Below, one piece after another: positions 1 through 14,344 of a stretch of 19,819 bases of DNA. Source of the stretch: a virus (lineage: Duplodnaviria; Heunggongvirae; Uroviricota; Caudoviricetes). How positions within the stretch are numbered: the first letter of the stretch is position 1; each line of letters begins with the position of its first letter. A program made the position numbers and the translations under genes. The notes below the pieces were generated by a model that had not been told where the DNA came from, did not search any database, and was given only the letters and a program-made list of their open reading frames with translations. Location of the stretch: positions 1 through 19,819 of IMG/VR virus record IMGVR_UViG_2675903413_000006, one strand, 5' to 3'.

Positions 1-1872
1 ATGAGGTTTATTGCGAAGATAATAAACGGCAGGAGAAGTGGTCTAGAGATAGGGTTGACTCCCTTTGGTCTTCAGTCCTCTAATCAGATTTATTTTCTGG
101 AAGACGAAGCTCTAGAGTTTAGGCTGGAAGCATCTGTTCCGTTGGATGATGTTTTTTTATGTCTTCATGAAAATGAAATAGGAATAACTTCTAGCAAAGA
201 ATACGATGGCCTATGGATTTACGAATGGAAACCAAAATCTATATATCGATCAACATACGAATGCTTTTTTCATAACTATTATGGTATGGCAGAGCTATCG
301 ATAGTAACGAAAATCGATGGAGTTGGCGAAAGAGTTATTATTGAACAATATTCTCCGGTTGAAGTATTTGCCAAAAAATTGAATGCTGAACGGGCAGAAA
401 AAATGCTCGATTTCTTAGCGTGTCATGATAATGATGCTCTAGCAGCATTTTTTAGAGTAACTCGTATAAATGCAGGATTCAAAGAAGGAGAAAGATCGGT
501 TAGCTTTTTGATTGAACAACTCGAACGAAATGTTTTATTGTTAATGACCGAGATTCCAAATATCTATTCCAGGCCAATCGCAAAACTTACACCAGTGACT
601 AAAGTTGTCGTAGTATCCGAAAACTCTGTTATCGATGACACCACTTTAGCTTGGATTTCAGAAAACTCTGACAACCTTTATCCAGTTAATGATCAGACCC
701 GCGCAATATTGGAACTAGATGGCACATATTATTCATCGGAACGAATATTAGAAAATCATCTAAAAGAGGATTTGAATATTTATGAAAATCAAGTTGTCCA
801 TGGCTTTATAGTATCCCTAATGCGTGCTGCATCGGAGATCTTGAGTCGGCTTGAAGAGTATCCTTCTTCCAGAATTCGTGAACAGTCGAGCATATCCGGG
901 TATATTTCATTTTTTGCACAGCTAAGTAAGTTTGCAAAGGTTGTAAATAAAAATAAAGTTTCACGATGTAAAGAATTGATTATTAATCTACAGCGTTTGA
1001 AACGAACTTTTGATGAGCGGGTTCCTGTAACTAATATTATCATTGGCACTCCGCAATTCACAAGAAAAGCTAGATACAACCTTCATTATCAGAAGGTTTT
1101 TCATAAAATAATTGCTTGGCATAGATTCGGCGCACCTGATTGGAGCGTACAGGAAGAGCTATTTTCGATACAAAGTATCCCAAAACTTTTTGAATACTAC
1201 CTATTATTTTTAATTAAGTATCACTTTGACAACGTACGGTTATTGGGCATGAAGTTTGAGCTAGTGAATGGCCCTGTAATAGAACGGAATAATTTTGAGT
1301 ATGACTGGGGAGGTTTTACTGTACAGCTTATCTATGAGATGAAAATTTGGACTCATGATCATGCAAGCTCTTTTGGGGCTTCCCTAATTAACTCCGAAGG
1401 GTGGACTCTAGACACCGTGAAAGGTAAATTGAAGCCTAGAGGGCAGCAAGGTCCTAATGCTAATCGATCACCAGACATGATAGTTTGCATTTCAACGCCT
1501 ACGGGTGAACAAAGGCAATTAATCCTAGATGCAAAGTATACTACCAGTAAAAAAGCGTTTACACATTACCTCCCCGAACTCACTATGAAATACCTTCATG
1601 GTATACATGAAAAAAATACTGGAAAAAGTTTGTCTTCTGGGCTGATGATTGTAAATCCAAGTGAATCTTGCGAGACTCGTCATTTCCATCATGAGAAATA
1701 TAGTATTTACGGAACAAGACCTATCACACCTGCTTTATTAGTAAGTTCGTTAGCTCCAGGAATGGCGGAAGATAGTGGTTCTGATTTTAGAAATAATTTA
1801 TCCCAATTCCTGACCTTAATGAGAGCCTCTCTTGAAGGTGAGCAACCATGCCATTTAGGAATCGTGGTTTAA
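1..1872 (+). CDS. Hypothetical 623-aa protein with a C-terminal PD-(D/E)xK-like nuclease motif; possible McrC-like or standalone restriction/defence nuclease
   Basis: Long uninterrupted ORF starting at window position 1; visibly AT-rich compared with the adjacent phage genes; C-terminal segment SPDMIVCISTPTGEQRQLILDAKYT fits the PD-x(n)-(D/E)-x-K pattern. The N-terminal ~480 aa are not recognised. Confidence 0.55.
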   Translation: MRFIAKIINGRRSGLEIGLTPFGLQSSNQIYFLEDEALEFRLEASVPLDDVFLCLHENEIGITSSKEYDGLWIYEWKPKSIYRSTYECFFHNYYGMAELSIVTKIDGVGERVIIEQYSPVEVFAKKLNAERAEKMLDFLACHDNDALAAFFRVTRINAGFKEGERSVSFLIEQLERNVLLLMTEIPNIYSRPIAKLTPVTKVVVVSENSVIDDTTLAWISENSDNLYPVNDQTRAILELDGTYYSSERILENHLKEDLNIYENQVVHGFIVSLMRAASEILSRLEEYPSSRIREQSSISGYISFFAQLSKFAKVVNKNKVSRCKELIINLQRLKRTFDERVPVTNIIIGTPQFTRKARYNLHYQKVFHKIIAWHRFGAPDWSVQEELFSIQSIPKLFEYYLLFLIKYHFDNVRLLGMKFELVNGPVIERNNFEYDWGGFTVQLIYEMKIWTHDHASSFGASLINSEGWTLDTVKGKLKPRGQQGPNANRSPDMIVCISTPTGEQRQLILDAKYTTSKKAFTHYLPELTMKYLHGIHEKNTGKSLSSGLMIVNPSESCETRHFHHEKYSIYGTRPITPALLVSSLAPGMAEDSGSDFRNNLSQFLTLMRASLEGEQPCHLGIVV

Positions 1873-2022: not shown

Positions 2023-3153
2023 TCACAACGCTACTTTGCTCCATCCCTTGCCTCGATCGTCATGATAACGATCGGTTTGTTGTTGTGTTTTATGACCAAG
2101 TAATTTTTGTGTATTTAAACCCTGTTCTTTATACAAACGTTCTGATAAAGACCTTTGTTCATGAAATGTTGCGGGAGAACCTTCACCCCAGTCAATTCCT
2201 GCTAAATCTCTTGCTTTACTGAAATTCATAGTCAAGGTATTGGCTTTAACCTGTGCGCCGCGTTCAGCCTGTGAAGTAGTACGAAAAAAATGTACAAGGT
2301 ATTGGCTGACCGCATAGTCACGGCAACGGGCTACTACATTGCGCAAACTCCAGTTAATCGCATTGAGGCGCAGGGAAAGCGGGATGGCGATTTTGCTCCC
2401 GGTTTTTTCCTGAATGACATGCAGATGATCATCCCAAATATCGCTAAATTTCATACGTGAAATATCACCTAACCGCTGACCAGTAACCAAGGCTAGCAGC
2501 ATGGCATTTCCCATGTAACGATGGCTGGCATCTGCGATATCGAATATTTTTTTCCATTCTTCGAGGCTCAGCCTTTGTCGGGTAATTTTTCTTCTTGGCT
2601 GTTTAGTAGCTAATGCAGGGTTATAGCCAGGAGGTACTTCTCCGTAGTGCTGCGCCTCTTTGAAAACATCAATCAGGACGGAGCGAACTACTTGTGCCAT
2701 TCTCGGTTGCCCAGCGGCAATATACTCATCAAGTAATTGTGCAATATCCCGGACATCAACAGCTGAAATTAGCTTCAATCCTGCCCGTTCTCTAAGTAAG
2801 GAGACAGGTTTGGCTTTCTGCTTGTAGGTGTTGAGCTTTATATCACCACTTTTCAGCCTGTCATTCTGGATCGCTTGATAGCGATCTAACCAAGTTGACG
2901 TTGTGATTGCTTTCCCTTTGCTGGTTGCGATCCTGTCACTGATGGCCAGAATCTGCCGGGTTCTTTGTTCAGCCAGGCGCGTATTGGCTTCAGTGGCAAT
3001 AGCGATAGCTTCAGTTTCGTTTGTTCCCAAAGCATGGAATTTCCCTGTTATTGGATGCTTATACCGCCAATAGACTTTATTTACCTTTCGGCTATAAAGC
3101 GGATATAAGTTAGGGACTGAAACATTATTCTTACGCGGTCTGGCTGCCATCAC
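2023..3153 (-). CDS. int: Tyrosine recombinase, lambda Int family integrase
   Basis: 376-aa ORF. N-terminal PNLY...ITGK and C-terminal LVTGQR...FHEQRSLSERLY...LLGHK...DRYHDDRGKGWSKV match the lambda Int layout including the catalytic Tyr region. The true start may be the second Met. Confidence 0.9.
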   Translation of the reverse strand: MMAARPRKNNVSVPNLYPLYSRKVNKVYWRYKHPITGKFHALGTNETEAIAIATEANTRLAEQRTRQILAISDRIATSKGKAITTSTWLDRYQAIQNDRLKSGDIKLNTYKQKAKPVSLLRERAGLKLISAVDVRDIAQLLDEYIAAGQPRMAQVVRSVLIDVFKEAQHYGEVPPGYNPALATKQPRRKITRQRLSLEEWKKIFDIADASHRYMGNAMLLALVTGQRLGDISRMKFSDIWDDHLHVIQEKTGSKIAIPLSLRLNAINWSLRNVVARCRDYAVSQYLVHFFRTTSQAERGAQVKANTLTMNFSKARDLAGIDWGEGSPATFHEQRSLSERLYKEQGLNTQKLLGHKTQQQTDRYHDDRGKGWSKVAL

Positions 3154-9809: not shown

Positions 9810-9826
9810 TTTTGTGGAGAAGGTTG

Positions 9827-10177
9827 ATGCGTGATATGTATGAAGTATTGGACCGCTGGGGAGCATGGGCTGCAGCAGATAACAGTGGTGTGGACTGGCA
9901 GCCTGTTGCTGCAGGGTTTAAAGGTTTACTACCTCATGGAAAGAAAACACGCCAACAATGCGATGATGATGAAGGAATCATGATTGACAGCTGTGTTGCG
10001 CGATTGCGGAAATATAAGCCAGAAGAATATGAACTGATCATTGCTCACTTTGTTATCGGTATTTCACTCCGTTCAATAGCAAAGAAACGGAAATGCTCTG
10101 ACGGGTCAATCAGAAAACAACTTCAAGCAGCAATAGGAGTGATTGAAGGTATTTTGTTGATTATTAAGCCCCTGTAG
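9827..10177 (+). CDS. Late-gene antitermination protein Q (QuuD-like small Q family)
   Basis: MRDMYEVLDRWGAWAA...AAGFKGL...CDDD...CSDGSIRKQLQAAIGVIEGIL matches the QuuD/YbcQ-like pattern; RBS GGAGAAGG. Confidence 0.8.
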   Translation: MRDMYEVLDRWGAWAAADNSGVDWQPVAAGFKGLLPHGKKTRQQCDDDEGIMIDSCVARLRKYKPEEYELIIAHFVIGISLRSIAKKRKCSDGSIRKQLQAAIGVIEGILLIIKPL

Positions 10178-10180
10178 GGC

Positions 10181-10765
10181 TTAATAATTCATATGAATTC
10201 TGTTTCCGAGATAATATAATCCAAAGAAAGTTGATACTAAGAGTTGCCAAACGAGGAAAGTAAATACAACAGTATAAACCATTAAAACAATACTGTTTTG
10301 ATAGACATTGATTAATGGTGAAAATATAGCATTAAGTATTATTATAACAATGCTTAATGCTGTTAAAAAAGAGAATAGCATGCAAAGAAATAATCGTCTG
10401 GTCAGAACCTCCTCTGAATTTACTACTTTTCCATTTTCTTTTGTTACTTTTATTTCAATAGAGGCATTTCTTTCATTGCTAATCAATGGTAAATCAATCT
10501 CAGCTCTATTGAAAGTTGCTATGGCGGCCAGAGCGGCAATATAAAACCCTGGTAGGTTAGAGATAAATGAAACGATTGATTTAATGAAACCATTGTCATC
10601 AAATAAATCTTTGACAGGGATTTTTAATAGAGTGAAAAGTACTGCTGTGATAGAAGTAAGTAGAATTGGTGCTACCCAATCATATGCAGCTTTGCCGCTA
10701 ATACCTTTAATAAAAAGATATCCAAACGGCTTGCCTAGATGAGAGAAAACTGAAAGTATTGGCAT
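10181..10765 (-). CDS. Hypothetical integral membrane protein (194 aa, about four predicted TM helices); second gene of the AT-rich cargo operon
   Basis: Four hydrophobic segments with a ~40-aa hydrophilic loop between the second and third; GAGG RBS 6 nt upstream of the ATG; 7-nt intergenic gap to the upstream gene; AT-rich. Confidence 0.6.
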   Translation of the reverse strand: MPILSVFSHLGKPFGYLFIKGISGKAAYDWVAPILLTSITAVLFTLLKIPVKDLFDDNGFIKSIVSFISNLPGFYIAALAAIATFNRAEIDLPLISNERNASIEIKVTKENGKVVNSEEVLTRRLFLCMLFSFLTALSIVIIILNAIFSPLINVYQNSIVLMVYTVVFTFLVWQLLVSTFFGLYYLGNRIHMNY

Positions 10766-10772
10766 AATAACC

Positions 10773-11795
10773 TCACATCAAATCTATCATTTTCACAACA
10801 AACTCTAGTTCAATTTTAACATATGAATCCTTCAGGCGCGAATTAAAGTTATCGATAATGCTTTTCTTAATAAATGTTTTTTCTAAATTATTAAGATTGA
10901 TGTTTGAGGTTTTGAAATCAACCTGCCTTGGTTTATTTGTTTCAGGATCTTGGAATTTAACCTTTAATTTATCATAACCACCATTCATTTTTTTATTGAA
11001 ATGAGATGCTACATTTTTAATCCATCCAATAACATTGTCACCATGATTTGGAAGTAATTTTAATGTACTTTCAGTCGGAATGTAAGGTGAATTAACATCA
11101 GGAGCATTAATTGTTCCGAATTGATCCTTGACTAATATGACATCTGATAATCCTTTTTGGCTTATTTTATTAAAAAGCTCCTTGTCTAACATTCCTGTAA
11201 ATTCAAATATTGGTTTGTATCGTATTTTTACTTCTTTTTTTGATGTTGCAGAAATAACGTTAGTTGGATGTTTTGCGGTAAATAAGTCTTCATTGTCTTT
11301 CGCCACTTCAAAGAGAATTTTGTCTAAAAAACTATTTAACCGGGCCGTAGATACACCTGGGGTAGATGTACAAATCATATCATAGGTTCTTTTATTTCCA
11401 TTTAATGATATGACAACATAGGTAGAAACTTCATAGCCTTCACCTTGTTCATATTTTGGTTGGATTTCAACGCGTTCATTAGTATTTATATTTTTTACAA
11501 CGGTAGTACTTCCATTTTTATCAACACTATTAATAAGAAGGACAATATGCGTGGGTGAGTTATCTGGAAGTAAAGGATAAAGTTGTACATCTTGGAGAGT
11601 AACTACAATATTCCCAGAATCATATGAATGAACGAGTCCCTTTTGTTTAACAATCAATGGGGCAAGCATGTACATTTCCGGAACAGGACATATACACTGG
11701 GCTTTTACCTCTTGTGTTGCCTTGGTTCTAAACTTTGTGTCAATGGTCAGACTATGATGAGTAACGAGTCTTTCGCTAGCATTTAATTTTGCCAT
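10773..11795 (-). CDS. Hypothetical soluble protein (340 aa); first gene of the AT-rich cargo operon
   Basis: Long AT-rich ORF antisense to the phage late genes; no catalytic motif recognised (no CD-NTase GS...DxD, no YADD, no Walker A, no TIR/SIR2 signature seen). Confidence 0.6.
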   Translation of the reverse strand: MAKLNASERLVTHHSLTIDTKFRTKATQEVKAQCICPVPEMYMLAPLIVKQKGLVHSYDSGNIVVTLQDVQLYPLLPDNSPTHIVLLINSVDKNGSTTVVKNINTNERVEIQPKYEQGEGYEVSTYVVISLNGNKRTYDMICTSTPGVSTARLNSFLDKILFEVAKDNEDLFTAKHPTNVISATSKKEVKIRYKPIFEFTGMLDKELFNKISQKGLSDVILVKDQFGTINAPDVNSPYIPTESTLKLLPNHGDNVIGWIKNVASHFNKKMNGGYDKLKVKFQDPETNKPRQVDFKTSNINLNNLEKTFIKKSIIDNFNSRLKDSYVKIELEFVVKMIDLM

Positions 11796-12080: not shown

Positions 12081-12407
12081 ATGCCTCATAACCCAAATAC
12101 CTGGCTGGAGTTGGTCCAGAGCTGGTGGCGTGGAGACACACCGCTGGGCGCAGTGATTATGTCGATTGTTATGGCTGGTTTACGTATTGCCTATTTTGGC
12201 GGTGGTGGCGGCTGGAAGCGAAAAACACTCGAAATTCTACTCTGTGGCGCTCTGACGCTGACTTTTGCATCCGCTCTTGAGTATGTCGGATGGCCTAAAT
12301 CGCTTTCTGTTGCCATTGGTGGTGGGGTGGGGCTGATCGGTGTCGATGCTATTCGTGGGGCTGCAATGAGAGTAATCGGTAATAAGTTTGGTGGCTCTAA
12401 GGAGTAA
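12081..12407 (+). CDS. Holin (lambda S-like)
   Basis: 108 aa with hydrophobic helices and a charged C-terminus, immediately upstream of the endolysin. Confidence 0.8.
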   Translation: MPHNPNTWLELVQSWWRGDTPLGAVIMSIVMAGLRIAYFGGGGGWKRKTLEILLCGALTLTFASALEYVGWPKSLSVAIGGGVGLIGVDAIRGAAMRVIGNKFGGSKE

Positions 12408-12410
12408 TTT

Positions 12411-12887
12411 ATGCAGGTACTAAATTCCCAGCGTAAAGCTTTCCTCGATATGGTGGCATGGTCAGAAGGAACGGATAACGGGCGACAACCGACACGTAAC
12501 CACGGTTATGATATTATTGTTGGTGGTGAACTATTCACTGATTACTCCGATCACCCTCGCAAACTTGTCACGCTAAACCCCAAACTCAAATCAACAGCTG
12601 CAGGCCGTTATCAACTTCTTTCACGCTGGTGGGATGCTTACCGCAAGCAGCTTGGGCTGAAAGACTTCTCTCCAAAAAGCCAGGATGCTGTGGCATTGCA
12701 GCAGATTAAAGAGCGTGGCGCTTTACCGATGATTGATCGCGGCGATATTCGTCAGGCTATCGATCGTTGCAGCAATATCTGGGCTTCACTGCCGGGCGCT
12801 GGTTACGGTCAATATGAACATAAAATCGGTGACCTGATTGCCCGATTCAAAGAGGCTGGCGGGGTGGTAAATGAAGTTGAGCTATAA
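12411..12887 (+). CDS. Endolysin, lambda R-type lytic transglycosylase
   Basis: Near-identical by recall to lambda R across the protein (QRKAFLDMVAWSEGTDNGRQPTRNHGYDIIVGGELFTDYSDHPRKLVTLNPKLKST...). Confidence 0.9.
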   Translation: MQVLNSQRKAFLDMVAWSEGTDNGRQPTRNHGYDIIVGGELFTDYSDHPRKLVTLNPKLKSTAAGRYQLLSRWWDAYRKQLGLKDFSPKSQDAVALQQIKERGALPMIDRGDIRQAIDRCSNIWASLPGAGYGQYEHKIGDLIARFKEAGGVVNEVEL

Positions 12888-13305
12888 GCTGGTTATCGCA
12901 GCATTCTTCTCTACTGTCATCGGTTCTTTCATCTGGTCTGCTAACCACTACTACAGCAAATATCAGCACGAAAAGAAACGTGCTGATGAGGCTGTACAAA
13001 ATGCTGAATCCGCAACCGCTATTACCAATAATGTCCTGCAATCACTGCAAATCGTCAATACAGTTCTGGAGGCTAACCAGCATGCAAAACAGCAGATCGC
13101 ACTGGAGTCACAGAGAACCCAGGCTGATATCAAAGTGGCTGTTGCGGATGATGATTGTGCTTTACGCCTTGTGCCTGCTGCCGCTGCTGACCGGTTGCGG
13201 AAATACGCGGACAGTTTACGTAACAGTACCTCCAATTCCGCTTCCAGCTACTCTGACTTTGGAAACGCCAGTACCGCACATACCCGATACTCTGACCTAT
13301 GGTGA
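12871..13305 (+). CDS. Rz-like i-spanin
   Basis: N-terminal TM segment followed by a coiled, charged region; start overlaps the R stop. Confidence 0.7.
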   Translation: MKLSYKLVIAAFFSTVIGSFIWSANHYYSKYQHEKKRADEAVQNAESATAITNNVLQSLQIVNTVLEANQHAKQQIALESQRTQADIKVAVADDDCALRLVPAAAADRLRKYADSLRNSTSNSASSYSDFGNASTAHTRYSDLW

Positions 13306-13396
13306 CAGTCTGGAGTTGAATGTGAGTCTGTTGTCAGCGTTGGAACAGTGTAATCTTGATAAAGCGACAATAAAAAATATCGACGCTAACAAATAA
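13148..13396 (+). CDS. Rz1-like o-spanin lipoprotein, embedded in the +1 frame of Rz
   Basis: MMIVLYALCLLPLLTGC signal with lipobox LTGC, then a Pro-rich segment; lies within and extends beyond Rz. Confidence 0.65.
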   Translation: MMIVLYALCLLPLLTGCGNTRTVYVTVPPIPLPATLTLETPVPHIPDTLTYGDSLELNVSLLSALEQCNLDKATIKNIDANK

Positions 13397-13461
13397 AAGG
13401 ACCTGTAATTTCATAGAGATGATTCCATGTTAATATTGCTTCTTTAACTGGAGGCATATTG

Positions 13462-13947
13462 ATGGATTGGAATATGTGGTCTGCTATTGGGGCTTGTGGT
13501 TCGGCTATCGCGTCTTTATGGGCGTTGTGTTATGCACGCAAGGCGTTAAACACATGGAATAGACAAGAGCAATTTAAAGTAAAGTTAGAGTTTAAACGAG
13601 CTTTACTTGAGCTGGAGGATGCCTTTGAGGCAATGCCCGATAATTGGAATTCCACACAATACAGAATAGCTAGAACAAGAGTTGAACAGCAGTATAATGC
13701 TGTTGTTCACCGAGTTGATGATGCAGCACAGCTATATTTTAAGAAAGAAAACCTTAAATCAGCATACCAGAATGCAGTGAGAGCATGGGTTTTATGTGAA
13801 GGGGGGATTAAAGATAAAAGTATACATGCTGAATGGAAACAACTCAGGACTGAATATAGTCAATATATTATGACTGGTGGAAATAAAAAGTGCTACTTAT
13901 CAAAAATAGAAAAAATATATTCTAGAATTGTCGTGTTCATAGATTGA
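13462..13947 (+). CDS. Hypothetical AT-rich moron protein (161 aa) with an N-terminal hydrophobic helix
   Basis: GGAGG RBS 7 nt upstream; AT-rich; followed by a perfect palindrome ATGAGAGAG-acaagta-CTCTCTCAT (13955-13979). Confidence 0.5.
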   Translation: MDWNMWSAIGACGSAIASLWALCYARKALNTWNRQEQFKVKLEFKRALLELEDAFEAMPDNWNSTQYRIARTRVEQQYNAVVHRVDDAAQLYFKKENLKSAYQNAVRAWVLCEGGIKDKSIHAEWKQLRTEYSQYIMTGGNKKCYLSKIEKIYSRIVVFID

Positions 13948-13993
13948 TTTTTATATGAGAGAGACAAGTACTCTCTCATTATGGATATTTTAC

Positions 13994-14344
13994 ATGCCAC
14001 CACGAACCCCAAAAGCCTGCCGCGTTCGCGGCTGCCGCAATACCACTACTGATCCGTCAGGCTATTGCGAAAACCACAAAAGCGAGGGCTGGAAGCAATA
14101 CAAGCCAGGACAATCCCGTCATCAGCGCGGTTATGGTTCGAAATGGGATGCTATCCGTGAACGTGTGCTGAAGCGTGACAAAGGCCTGTGTCAGTTATGT
14201 CTGCGTGCTGGTGTGGTGCGTGAGGCGAAAACCGTTGACCACATCATCCCTAAAGCGCATGGCGGCACAGATGCCGACAGTAATCTGCAGAGCCTGTGCT
14301 GGCCGTGTCATAAGGCGAAGACGGCCCGTGAACGGCTGAAGTGA
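13994..14344 (+). CDS. HNH endonuclease (terminase-associated)
   Basis: CxxC...HK...CxxCH arrangement with DHIIPKAHGG...NLQSLCWPCHKAKT; located immediately upstream of terS. Confidence 0.8.
   Translation: MPPRTPKACRVRGCRNTTTDPSGYCENHKSEGWKQYKPGQSRHQRGYGSKWDAIRERVLKRDKGLCQLCLRAGVVREAKTVDHIIPKAHGGTDADSNLQSLCWPCHKAKTARERLK

What the first reader, a model, noticed from the sequence alone, without database searches (positions are those of the whole stretch)
13462..13980. AT-rich moron with an N-terminal membrane anchor between the lysis cassette and HNH/terminase, ending in a perfect palindromic hairpin
This is a compositionally foreign single gene with its own strong RBS, in the moron position that lambda bor occupies. 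The 9-bp perfect palindrome ATGAGAGAG/CTCTCTCAT directly after it suggests an independent transcription unit. Single membrane-anchored proteins at this site are often lysogenic-conversion or superinfection-exclusion factors.
Basis: partly seen in the sequence, partly recalled or inferred. Interest (0 to 1): 0.5.

Follow-up and report, generated by a model that had tools for sequence, protein, structure and literature searches.

The report
Uncharacterised membrane-anchored prophage cargo gene
This is a real but optional "add-on" gene of an E. coli prophage, between the lysis genes and the DNA-packaging genes, that encodes a small membrane-anchored protein of a rare family with no known function; it is interesting only as a candidate for phage-versus-phage defence.

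Summary
**Observation: confirmed.**
- Window 13462-13947 (+) is a 161-aa gene with a GGAGG ribosome-binding site 7 nt upstream.
- Its GC content is 37.7%, against 48-58% in the flanks.
- It lies between Rz1/LysC and the HNH/P27-type terminase genes.
- A perfect 9-bp/7-nt-loop hairpin (13955-13979) follows it.

**What it is.** The gene is optional cargo in a variable slot. Collinear E. coli prophages have this slot empty, or filled with iss/bor, a GrlR-like gene, a DUF2441 gene or other unknowns.

**The protein.**
- It belongs to a small family, seen only in Enterobacterales: 45 representatives among 1.84 billion proteins. It matches phrog_6169, whose function is unknown.
- It is under purifying selection.
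- The prediction is one N-terminal transmembrane helix (N-out/C-in), a conserved juxtamembrane motif, and a generic cytoplasmic helical bundle (AlphaFold2 pLDDT 87).
- It has no significant match in Pfam, PADLOC, NCBIfam, PDB or BFVD.
- The UniRef label "DUF4760" was not reproduced, and it is unrelated to P22 SieA.
- Divergent relatives sit after the lysis cassette and before the terminase in 13 of 14 lineages examined.

**Still open.** Independent transcription is not shown. There is only a weak, conserved extended -10, and the hairpin has no U-tract.

**Function.** It is inferred only. Most likely the protein is a membrane-anchored exclusion or abortive-infection factor. The main rival is a late-expressed accessory of lysis.

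**Verdict.** An ordinary moron of an uncharacterised family.

The parts
13235..13396 (+). Rz1/LysC o-spanin gene. It is the last gene of the lysis cassette and the left boundary of the variable slot.
   Evidence: RefSeq annotation of the identical sequence. Homology with the empty-site prophage L003 runs up to the end of this gene.
13397..13461 (+). 65-nt AT-rich spacer (GC 34%) that belongs to the cassette. No hairpin or terminator separates it from the lysis genes.
   Evidence: The block ATAGAGATGATTCCrTGTTAATAT is conserved in all alleles while its neighbours vary.
13428..13436 (+). Candidate extended -10 element, TGTTAATAT (TGn + TAATAT, 4 of 6 matches), with no recognisable -35. Unproven.
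   Evidence: Invariant TG and hexamer across the 100%, 94% and 69% alleles. There are only 6 such motifs on the + strand of the window, but the chance expectation in this spacer is 11%. The standard scan missed it.
13450..13454 (+). Shine-Dalgarno sequence GGAGG, 7 nt upstream of the ATG.
13462..13947 (+). CDS of 161 aa plus stop. It encodes a bitopic membrane protein of an uncharacterised family (phrog_6169).
13474..13536 (+). Codons about 5-25: the single predicted transmembrane helix, rich in small residues (SAIGACGSAIASLWALCYA).
   Evidence: Hydropathy and charge-bias analysis of 31 members. It forms part of a continuous helix 3-57 in the AlphaFold2 model.
13534..13638 (+). Codons 25-59: the conserved juxtamembrane helix with motif A..AL.TW..QE..K.K..FK...L......MP. 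It holds 9 of the 13 invariant or near-invariant residues of the family (A25, A28, W32, Q35, E36, K39, F44, K45, P59).
   Evidence: Alignment A2. The 5' 66 codons are 94% identical to the 69% allele (Ks 0.245, Ka 0.032).
13639..13944 (+). Codons 60-161: the variable helical-bundle domain, predicted to be cytoplasmic. Conserved residues are W109, E113, W125 and Y135, plus a C-terminal hydrophobic tail (VVF here, FVF in most members).
13955..13979 (+). Perfect 9-bp inverted repeat with a 7-nt loop, the 3' end of the cassette. It may be a weak terminator or a hairpin that stabilises the RNA 3' end.
   Evidence: It is conserved in the 93-100% alleles, replaced by a different weak hairpin plus U6 in the 69% allele, and absent from the empty site.
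13994..14344 (+). HNH endonuclease gene, the right boundary of the slot. Homology with empty-site and other-cargo prophages resumes just upstream of its ATG.

Best explanation
Window 13397-13993 is a self-contained accessory cassette of the moron type, inserted into the variable slot between the lysis cassette (holin, GH24 endolysin, Rz, Rz1) and the packaging genes (HNH, P27-type TerS, TerL) of a lambdoid prophage with a Mu-like tail.

**Shown**
- The gene is real and under purifying selection.
- It is optional: collinear prophages lack it or carry different cargo in the same slot.
- It is compositionally foreign.
- It belongs to a small family, found only in Enterobacterales, whose members nearly always occupy this same interval on the late-operon strand.

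**Predicted**
- The product is a bitopic inner-membrane protein.
- It has a short acidic N-terminus outside and one transmembrane helix rich in small residues.
- A strongly conserved basic juxtamembrane helix follows (TW..QE..K.K..FK).
- A more variable helical bundle of about 100 residues sits in the cytoplasm. It has no catalytic-looking conserved residues.

**Inferred mechanism**
- The protein works by protein-protein contact at the inner face of the membrane.
- The conserved anchor and juxtamembrane module provides membrane placement and possibly self-association.
- The diverging bundle provides target specificity.
- The most likely role is in phage-phage conflict. It would either block a competing phage at or just after DNA entry, or abort the infection by disturbing the membrane once a phage component is sensed.
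- During lytic growth it is necessarily co-transcribed with the late operon.
- Expression in the lysogen would need the unproven extended -10 promoter at 13428-13436. Such transcripts would end at the 13955-13979 hairpin.
For: **Real gene**
- phrog_6169, E = 8e-65.
- 45 family representatives with conserved motifs.
- Ka/Ks of 0.32-0.48.

**Optional cargo**
- Only 9 of 5426 E. coli genomes carry this DNA, and 27 carry the sal3-type paralogue.
- The flanks occur in about 3000 genomes.
- The slot is empty in L003. It holds other cargo in L004-L009: iss/bor, a GrlR-like gene, a DUF2441 gene and unknowns.

**Composition**
- GC 37.7% against 48-58% in the flanks.

**Topology**
- There is one hydrophobic segment, averaging KD 1.9 across the family.
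- The N-tail averages 0.9 K/R against 3.0 D/E. The first 15 residues after the helix average 3.7 K/R against 1.5 D/E.

**Fold**
- pLDDT 87.4, pTM 0.72, a continuous helix 3-57 followed by a helical bundle.

**Modularity**
- The 5' third and 3' two-thirds have different ancestry between alleles: Ks 0.245 against 1.12.

**Cassette ends**
- The hairpin is absent from the empty site.
- Canonical terminators follow the same-strand cargo in L007 and L009, and follow the distant homologue in L027. A terminator there only makes sense for transcription that is not Q-antiterminated (inference from lambda late-operon biology).

**Prophage as a cargo carrier**
- The neighbouring Q-holin slot carries the PADLOC candidate defence pair PDC-M53.
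- A relative's prophage carries Kiwa KwaA in that same slot.

**Possible remote link**
- The N-terminal half matches the HP1 orf1 family, which lies in the lysogeny (int-cI) region: hhalign probability 87%, E = 4e-6, 71 columns.
Against: **No match to known families**
- No defence, exclusion or abortive-infection family matches: PADLOC, Pfam and NCBIfam, SieA.

**No evidence on expression**
- No consensus promoter precedes this gene or its relatives, and promoter counts do not exceed shuffles.
- The extended -10 has an 11% chance expectation.
- The hairpin lacks a U-tract.
- Two relatives examined for one (L004 and L033) have no 3' hairpin at all.

**Weak support from the slot itself**
- None of the other cargo in this slot is a recognised defence gene.
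- iss/bor and the GrlR-like gene point to host-directed functions instead.

**Limits of the predictions**
- The window protein's own hydropathy (1.45) is below the usual 1.6 cut-off.
- The HP1 match covers a transmembrane segment, which inflates profile scores.
Confidence: 0.4

Rival explanations
1. The gene is a late-expressed accessory of the lysis/egress module. It has no promoter of its own and is made only from the Q-antiterminated late transcript, together with holin, endolysin and spanins. At the inner membrane it tunes lysis, for example in an antiholin-like or timing role, or it protects the infected cell's membrane or energy state until packaging is complete.
For: - It lies on the same strand as the late operon in every context, directly after Rz/Rz1 in most of the 13 of 14 lineages that keep it between lysis cassette and terminase.
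- No terminator lies between Rz1 and the gene, and no consensus promoter precedes it or its relatives.
- Membrane localisation fits the site of holin and spanin action.
Against: - It is optional. Most collinear prophages with the same lysis genes lack it and presumably lyse normally.
- It occurs with unrelated holin and endolysin types: lambda-S/GH24, P21-type holin with Phage_lysozyme, and GH19. This argues against a specific holin partner.
- One lineage (P0057) sits in the head-gene cluster after the portal and Mu-F-like genes, far from any lysis gene in the 6.8 kb seen.
- In L031, L041 and L044 other genes or long spacers separate it from the lysis genes or from the terminase.
- Terminators or hairpins directly after the gene in several lineages are pointless for a purely Q-antiterminated transcript.
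- Its foreign base composition is unlike the lysis genes.
Confidence: 0.25
2. The gene is a lysogenic-conversion factor directed at host physiology or the host environment rather than at other phages. It would be analogous in role to the iss/bor and GrlR-like genes that occupy the same slot in other prophages. For example, it could modulate a host inner-membrane transporter, sensor or envelope-stress pathway.
For: - The slot demonstrably carries iss (serum survival) and a GrlR-family regulator in other strains.
- Carrier strains include urinary, avian-pathogenic and ETEC isolates and many Salmonella serovars.
- The cytoplasmic bundle resembles generic adaptor and sensor bundles.
Against: - The protein has no similarity to any virulence or regulatory family.
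- The family was found only inside prophage late regions, never in chromosomal or island contexts.
- It is rare, in under 1% of E. coli genomes, with no visible link to a pathotype.
Confidence: 0.15
3. The ORF is a chance reading frame in AT-rich junk DNA left by recombination, and the hairpin is a chance palindrome. Nothing here is functional.
For: - It has no annotated function anywhere, and the window protein's hydropathy is modest.
Against: - Homologues down to 18-38% identity keep their length, motifs and position.
- Ka/Ks is 0.13-0.48.
- The AlphaFold2 model is confident.
- The RBS is strong and conserved.
- The hairpin has z = -3.59 and is cassette-specific.
Confidence: 0.02

Closest known systems
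Lambda bor / E. coli iss (prophage serum-resistance lipoprotein moron)
   Same: - It occupies exactly the same slot between Rz/Rz1 and the packaging genes. In L008 iss lies between rzpD and the HNH gene of a collinear prophage.
- It is optional cargo.
   Different: - Bor/Iss is an outer-membrane lipoprotein encoded on the opposite strand.
- This protein has no lipoprotein signal. It has no basic n-region, and Cys12 is not conserved in the family.
- It lies on the late-operon strand and is predicted to be an inner-membrane N-out/C-in protein.
- There is no sequence relationship.
HK97 gp15-type and P22 SieA-type inner-membrane superinfection-exclusion morons
   Same: - Both are small inner-membrane proteins (about 160 aa) encoded by optional genes embedded in the late region of temperate enterobacterial phages.
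- SieA has its own promoter and acts at DNA entry (PMC10883804). The moron concept is described in PMC3594210.
   Different: - SieA has three predicted transmembrane helices and the motif FxRYPxEAxxFNK (PMC10883804). This family has one transmembrane helix and different motifs.
- hhalign probability against SieA is 0.6%.
- HK97 gp15 was not compared directly; the resemblance is from my own knowledge only.
- No exclusion phenotype is known for this family.
Haemophilus phage HP1 orf1 family ('uncharacterized 23.2 kDa protein in int-C1 intergenic region')
   Same: - It is the second-best hit (rank 2) in the viral fold library, and weak.
- The profile-profile match has probability 87% and E = 4e-6 over 71 columns. 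It covers the transmembrane helix and the (S/T)W(K/R)xQ...K.K juxtamembrane helix.
- It is also a temperate-phage accessory membrane protein of unknown function.
   Different: - HP1 orf1 is about 205 aa, with two hydrophobic segments and an unrelated C-terminal part.
- It lies in the lysogeny operon between int and cI on a P2-like phage.
- The match is partial, includes a transmembrane segment and is below the level I would call homology.
Pfam DUF4760 (the name UniRef gives to 97%-identical Salmonella proteins)
   Same: - UniRef labels P0001 and P0007 'DUF4760 domain-containing protein'.
   Different: - The current Pfam-A gives no DUF4760 hit at E up to 10 for the window protein or for the proteins UniRef names that way, and none at E up to 1 for any of 31 family members.
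Four-helix-bundle sensor/adaptor domains (Tar/NarQ 4HB, CheA P1, NasR NIT, FAT domains)
   Same: - The model's transmembrane helix runs straight into helix 1 of an up-down bundle, as in 4HB chemoreceptor sensors.
   Different: - Those sensor domains are periplasmic and lie between two transmembrane helices. Here the bundle is predicted cytoplasmic and there is no second transmembrane helix.

Membership tests
Moron (Hendrix/Juhala sense: an extra, independently transcribed gene inserted between conserved phage genes) | Present in some genomes and absent from otherwise collinear relatives | tested here: met
   The site is empty in L003. The same slot holds other cargo in L004-L009. This DNA occurs in 9 of 5426 genomes, against about 3000 with the flanks.
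Moron (Hendrix/Juhala sense: an extra, independently transcribed gene inserted between conserved phage genes) | Nucleotide composition distinct from the neighbouring genes | tested here: met
   GC 37.7% and GC3 31.5%, against GC 48-58% in the flanks.
Moron (Hendrix/Juhala sense: an extra, independently transcribed gene inserted between conserved phage genes) | Own promoter upstream | tested here: inconclusive
   The scan finds no consensus sigma-70 site. An extended -10, TGTTAATAT, is conserved in all alleles, but its chance expectation is 11%. No consistent promoter precedes relatives.
Moron (Hendrix/Juhala sense: an extra, independently transcribed gene inserted between conserved phage genes) | Own terminator downstream | tested here: inconclusive
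   A stable cassette-specific hairpin exists (z = -3.59), but it has no U-tract and the scan does not flag it. The 69% allele has a weak hairpin plus U6. The distant member in L027 has a canonical terminator. L004 and L033 have none.
Moron (Hendrix/Juhala sense: an extra, independently transcribed gene inserted between conserved phage genes) | Expressed from the repressed prophage | not testable with these tools
   This needs RNA-seq, 5'-RACE or reporter fusions in a lysogen.
Pfam DUF4760 (PF15956) | HMM match at or above the gathering score | tested here: not met
   No DUF4760 hit appears at E up to 10 for the window protein, P0001, P0005, P0007, P0002 or the sal3-type protein, and none at E up to 1 for 31 members.
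P22 SieA superinfection-exclusion family | Three (types B and C: four) predicted transmembrane helices and the cytoplasmic motif FxRYPxEAxxFNK; detectable sequence similarity | tested here: not met
   The family has one hydrophobic segment, and the motif is absent from alignment A2. hhalign of A2 against P22 SieA gives probability 0.6%. The defining features come from PMC10883804.
Bor/Iss lipoprotein family | Lipoprotein signal peptide with a conserved lipobox cysteine; Pfam Bor/Iss match | tested here: not met
   No Pfam hit. The N-terminus MDWNMW has no basic n-region. Cys12 ('IGAC') is not conserved outside the closest alleles.
Known or candidate anti-phage defence systems (PADLOC-DB v2.0.0) | HMM match to a defence-system protein | tested here: not met
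   0 families at E up to 10. In the same window, the pair at 10181-11795 does match PDC-M53.
Holin / antiholin | Match to a holin family, or demonstrated control of lysis timing | tested here: inconclusive
   There is no holin Pfam match. The cassette already has a lambda-family holin at 12081-12407. The family co-occurs with unrelated holin types. Function was not testable.
phrog_6169 (PHROGs, unknown function) | Full-length HMM match | tested here: met
   E = 7.7e-65, residues 1-160 aligned to profile positions 5-164 of 165.

The most novel reading that the evidence does not exclude
The family is a previously unrecognised single-gene, membrane-anchored anti-phage system of Enterobacterales prophages with a modular build. 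A conserved transmembrane plus juxtamembrane module (TW..QE..K.K..FK) acts as the membrane effector or oligomerisation unit. It may be shared with the lysogeny-operon protein orf1 of HP1-like phages. A rapidly diverging, recombining cytoplasmic four-helix bundle acts as the sensor that sets which phages are excluded.
Probability: 0.2. Interest if true: 0.6.

Novelty: new member of a known kind. Interest (0 to 1): 0.33.

Why it matters
**If the protein is an exclusion or abortive-infection factor:**
- It would add a compact (161 aa) single-gene system to the catalogue of prophage-encoded defences.
- It would mark the Rz1-terminase slot of P27/HK97-type lambdoid prophages as a place to mine for more. 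That slot holds many other unknown genes.

**If it is a lysis accessory:**
- It would be a new optional component of the otherwise well-understood holin-endolysin-spanin pathway.

**As it stands:**
- It is a hypothetical protein in a well-known type of location. The practical value of this work is a clean definition of the cassette, the family, its predicted topology, and the experiments that would settle its role.

Tried and rejected
**Sequence and family searches**
- *Near-DNA search of the phage collection:* no match.
- *Pfam, NCBIfam and PADLOC on the protein and on 31 relatives:* nothing significant. The best hit was DUF2524 at E = 0.006, below its cut-off.
- *UniRef's 'DUF4760' label:* not reproducible. 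The only paper that mentions DUF4760 is an unrelated Serratia island study.

**Structure searches**
- *Profile search of PDB sequences:* nothing; the best hit was a C-type lectin at E = 0.02.
- *The afdb50 library:* not available.

**Specific candidates**
- *P22 SieA:* rejected.
- *Tai, Tab and HepS prophage defence papers:* checked, unrelated.
- *Literature search by accession, PHROG id and phage name:* nothing about this protein.
- *Rfam on 13200-14200:* no RNA family.
- *Lipoprotein reading of 'IGAC':* rejected. There is no n-region and the Cys is not conserved.
- *Other cargo of the same slot against PADLOC:* no known defence genes, so 'defence hotspot' is not established for this slot.

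**Searches that under-delivered**
- The search for related loci with the broad alignment failed for lack of a conserved stretch.
- P0035 gave no viral locus, and its only contig is too short to show context.
- The word-indexed search with the family profile returned only 6 proteins.
- Consensus promoter scans upstream of three distant relatives gave nothing above shuffles.
Full report
**1. Observation**

- An ORF runs from ATG 13462 to TGA 13945-13947 on the + strand and encodes 161 aa.
- GGAGG lies at 13450-13454, 7 nt upstream of the ATG.
- The gene has GC 37.7% (GC3 31.5%). The holin, endolysin and Rz genes have 48-52%, and HNH and TerS have 56-58%.
- Seven bases after the stop, ATGAGAGAG (13955-13963) pairs perfectly with CTCTCTCAT (13971-13979) across a 7-nt loop.
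- The 52-nt spacer folds at -14.1 kcal/mol with z = -3.59, and 1 of 200 shuffles folds as well.
- The window holds five distinct perfect hairpins of at least 9 bp (7 overlapping registers counted), against 0.78 expected from shuffles counted the same way.
- The hairpin is not a textbook intrinsic terminator. It has 4 G-C pairs and the tail UUAUGGAU, and the scan did not flag it.

**2. Context**

The same sequence occurs at 99-100% identity in six complete E. coli genomes, and twice in strain 82.0311.

RefSeq annotation there gives this gene order:
- Q-family antiterminator;
- two minus-strand hypothetical genes;
- lambda-family holin (window 12081-12407);
- GH24 endolysin (12411-12887);
- DUF2570 Rz (12871-13305);
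- Rz1/LysC (13235-13396);
- the target gene, annotated 'hypothetical protein' WP_052921210.1;
- HNH endonuclease (13994-14344);
- P27-family TerS, TerL, portal, HK97-type protease and capsid, then a Mu-like contractile tail.

The window starts in a DUF2357 gene next to an e14-type integrase.

**3. The gene is optional cargo in a variable slot**

A 2.5-kb query spanning endolysin to TerS matches about 3000 of 5426 E. coli genomes. Only six cover the middle part.

Collinear prophages show these contents in the slot:

| Locus | Content between Rz1 and HNH |
|---|---|
| L003 | Empty; 26 nt between the two genes |
| L004 | A 184-aa hypothetical protein |
| L005 | Two minus-strand hypotheticals |
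| L006 | A small minus-strand ORF |
| L007 | A DUF2441 protein |
| L008 | iss, the bor homologue, on the minus strand |
| L009 | A GrlR-family protein |

- Comparison with the empty site places the right junction just upstream of the HNH start codon. The hairpin therefore belongs to the insert.
- None of the other cargo matches a known defence system. The slot cannot be called a defence hotspot on present evidence.

**4. The family**

*Searches*
- The protein matches phrog_6169 (unknown function) end to end, E = 8e-65.
- Nothing significant turns up in Pfam, NCBIfam or PADLOC.
- The word-indexed search found only close relatives in Salmonella, E. coli, Shigella and Citrobacter.
- The exhaustive profile search found 45 representatives (50% clusters) among 1.84 billion proteins, 27 of them with E of 1e-10 or better. 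The family is small.
- A scan of 185,579 species genomes with a subfamily profile found four loci, all Enterobacterales: Enterobacter, Atlantibacter, Pantoea and Yersinia.
- The 184-aa cargo of L004 is a distant member (27% identity). It is identical to a protein of Salmonella phage 118970_sal3 that also follows Rz. This branch occurs in 27 of 5426 E. coli genomes, including ETEC H10407.

*Conserved features*
- A25, W32 and P59 are invariant.
- A28, Q35, E36, K39, F44, K45, W109, E113, W125 and Y135 are at least 90% conserved.
- The consensus reads A..AL.TW..QE..K.K..FKK.L......MP ... W..CE.LF ... W ... Y ... FVF.
- No conserved His, Cys or Asp pattern suggests catalysis.

*The DUF4760 label*
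- UniRef calls two 97%-identical Salmonella proteins 'DUF4760 domain-containing'.
- The current Pfam gives no such hit for them or for any of 31 members.

**5. Selection and mosaicism**

- Ka/Ks between alleles is 0.32-0.48.
- Against the 69% allele (L020), the first 66 codons are 94% identical, with Ks 0.245 and Ka 0.032.
- The remaining 95 codons are 50% identical, with Ks 1.12 and Ka 0.35.
- The alleles are therefore recombinant. They share a recent anchor and juxtamembrane module and carry divergent C-terminal bundles. Both parts are under purifying selection.

**6. Predicted protein**

*Topology*
- Every one of 31 members has exactly one hydrophobic segment. The mean 19-residue Kyte-Doolittle value is 1.9, and the window protein scores 1.45.
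- The N-tail is acidic, averaging 0.9 K/R against 3.0 D/E.
- The C-flank is basic, averaging 3.7 K/R against 1.5 D/E in 15 residues.
- By the positive-inside rule this gives N-out/C-in. This step is an inference.

*Fold*
- AlphaFold2 with the 31-sequence alignment gives pLDDT 87.4 and pTM 0.72.
- The model is one continuous helix 3-57 (transmembrane plus juxtamembrane), followed by helices 64-81, 87-112, 119-138 and 142-155.
- Foldseek finds nothing at E of 0.001 or better in PDB or BFVD.

*Weak leads*
- The two best viral hits are uncharacterised proteins of mycobacteriophage Redi and of Haemophilus phage HP1 (orf1, between int and cI).
- A profile of 25 HP1-orf1 relatives aligns to the family profile with probability 87% and E = 4e-6 over 71 columns, covering the transmembrane and juxtamembrane helix.
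- I treat this as a lead and not as homology, because transmembrane segments inflate such scores.

*Rejected*
- P22 SieA has three transmembrane helices and a different motif (PMC10883804). It is unrelated, at probability 0.6%.

**7. Positional conservation**

For divergent members I examined 14 lineages. In 13 of them the gene lies on the late-operon strand, after the lysis cassette and before the terminase.

| Lineage | Loci | Context |
|---|---|---|
| Window type | L001, L040 and others | Lambda-S holin, GH24, Rz/Rz1; then HNH and P27 terminase |
| 69% allele | L020, L021 | Different lysis ORF set, not family-scanned; then an HNH-like start and TerL-sized ORF |
| sal3 type | L002, L004 | After Rz/Rz1; HNH downstream in L004 |
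| P0040 | L022 | P21-type holin, lysozyme, Rz; then a Terminase_2 TerS |
| P0069 | L024, L025 | After lysis genes; then HNH and P27-type terminase |
| P0070 | L027-L029 | After lysis genes; then lambda-type Nu1-like and GpA |
| P0045 | L031, L032 | GH19 endolysin; shares the interval with a trypsin-like gene |
| P0047 | L033, L034 | After lysis genes; then GpA terminase |
| P0054 | L035, L036 | After lysis genes; then a metallopeptidase and a DUF2280 TerS |
| Four species loci | L041-L044 | After lysozyme (Rz also detected in L041-L043); HNH/TerL or TerS detected downstream in three (none in L043) |
| P0057 (the exception) | L037, L038 | After TerS, TerL, portal and a Mu-F-like gene |

- The gene thus keeps its position while both flanking modules change. 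This is the usual behaviour of position-specific cargo in mosaic lambdoid genomes.
- Its co-occurrence with unrelated holin and endolysin types, together with the P0057 exception, argues against a dedicated lysis partner.

**8. Transcription signals**

*Upstream*
- No terminator lies between Rz1 and the gene, and the consensus scan finds no sigma-70 promoter in the 65-nt spacer.
- An extended -10-like TGTTAATAT (13428-13436) sits inside the block ATAGAGATGATTCCrTGTTAATAT. That block is conserved across the 100%, 94% and 69% alleles while neighbouring bases vary.
- A shuffled spacer of this composition contains such a motif 11% of the time.
- Three distant relatives show no promoter excess.

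*Downstream*
- The hairpin is kept in the 93-100% alleles. One has a closing-pair change and one a 2-nt deletion, and there are no compensatory changes.
- In the 69% allele it is replaced by a weak hairpin followed by U6.
- The empty site has no hairpin.
- Same-strand cargo in L007 and L009 ends in canonical GC-stem/U-tract terminators.
- The P0070 lineage has a canonical terminator 77 nt after its stop codon.
- L004 and L033 have none.

*Reading*
- In lambda, Q-modified polymerase ignores terminators. A terminator placed right after same-strand cargo is therefore meaningful only for transcription that begins locally. This is an inference from established lambda late-operon biology.
- The inference favours the moron model for the slot in general.
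- For this particular gene, both the promoter and the terminator remain unproven.

**9. Interpretation**

*Shown*
- A real, selected, facultative and compositionally foreign cassette spans 13397-13993.
- It encodes a member of a small, uncharacterised, prophage-restricted family.

*Predicted*
- The product is a bitopic N-out/C-in inner-membrane protein with a conserved juxtamembrane helix and a variable cytoplasmic helical bundle that does not look catalytic.

*Inferred*
- It acts by protein-protein contact at the cytoplasmic face of the membrane.
- I rank phage-phage conflict (exclusion at or after DNA entry, or abortive infection) first, at about 0.4. Four points support this:
  - The moron architecture of the slot.
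  - The modular conserved-anchor and variable-bundle pattern.
  - The prophage's other defence-type cargo: PDC-M53 in the Q-holin slot, and Kiwa in the same slot of a relative.
  - The possible link to a lysogeny-operon protein of HP1.
- A late-expressed lysis or egress accessory comes second, at about 0.25. The gene's strand, its place behind Rz1 and the lack of a clear promoter are what that model predicts.
- A host-directed conversion factor comes third, at about 0.15.
- A spurious ORF is excluded.

**10. Novelty and score**

- Nothing here departs from the known pattern of lambdoid morons. What is new is only that this family has no assigned function and no detectable relatives among characterised proteins.
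- I rate it a new member of a known kind, with interest 0.33.
- The most novel reading still open is a modular single-gene membrane defence system. I give it a probability of about 0.2, and it would merit about 0.6 if true.

Noticed in passing
window 10181-10765 (-) and 10773-11795 (-): Two AT-rich (GC 32%) convergent genes lie between the Q antiterminator (9812-10177) and the holin. They match the PADLOC candidate defence system PDC-M53: B at E = 2e-54 and A at E = 2e-32. RefSeq calls both 'hypothetical protein'. A perfect hairpin at 10161-10187 sits between the Q stop and the PDC-M53B stop and is probably a bidirectional terminator.
   Followed up: partly
L033 2025-3186 (-): In the prophage that carries the P0047 relative, the equivalent Q-to-holin slot holds a KwaA (Kiwa) gene and a partner on the minus strand. 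The Q-holin slot therefore looks like a recurrent defence-cargo site in these prophages, unlike the Rz1-terminase slot.
   Followed up: no
window 1-1872 (+) and 2023-3153 (-): The window begins with a complete 623-aa AT-rich gene annotated as a DUF2357 domain protein, immediately outside an e14-type integrase (intE) and excisionase. It has no NCBIfam or PADLOC hit. It could be flanking island cargo at the attachment site.
   Followed up: no
E. coli 82.0311 chromosome, L001 (1346954-1375574) and L040 (2420657-2448210): One strain carries two prophages with identical late regions, including this gene and the PDC-M53 pair. Their integration and early regions differ: CPS-53-like yfd genes in one, e14-like intE/ymf genes in the other. 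The window's own early region also differs from L040 by about 1.6 kb.
   Followed up: partly
window 13462-13947 compared with L020 5001-5489: The gene is mosaic within itself. Codons 1-66 have Ks 0.245 and codons 67-161 have Ks 1.12 between alleles. This implies a recombination breakpoint near the end of the conserved juxtamembrane helix.
   Followed up: yes
window 13955-13996: The left arm of the hairpin starts with an ATG (13955) that is in frame with the HNH gene, so mechanical ORF calling extends HNH to 129 aa. RefSeq and the empty-site comparison support the ATG at 13994, giving 116 aa.
   Followed up: yes
L031 1685-2425 (+): In the P0045 lineage the lysis-terminase interval also holds a 246-aa trypsin-like serine protease gene directly upstream of the family member. 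Its protease domain resembles that of PADLOC RT-Protease_XI (E = 1e-14), without the reverse transcriptase part.
   Followed up: no
window 12962-12987 (-): A 9-bp perfect hairpin followed by a T-rich tail lies inside the Rz/Rz1 coding region, flagged as terminator-like on the minus strand. Its significance is unknown.
   Followed up: no
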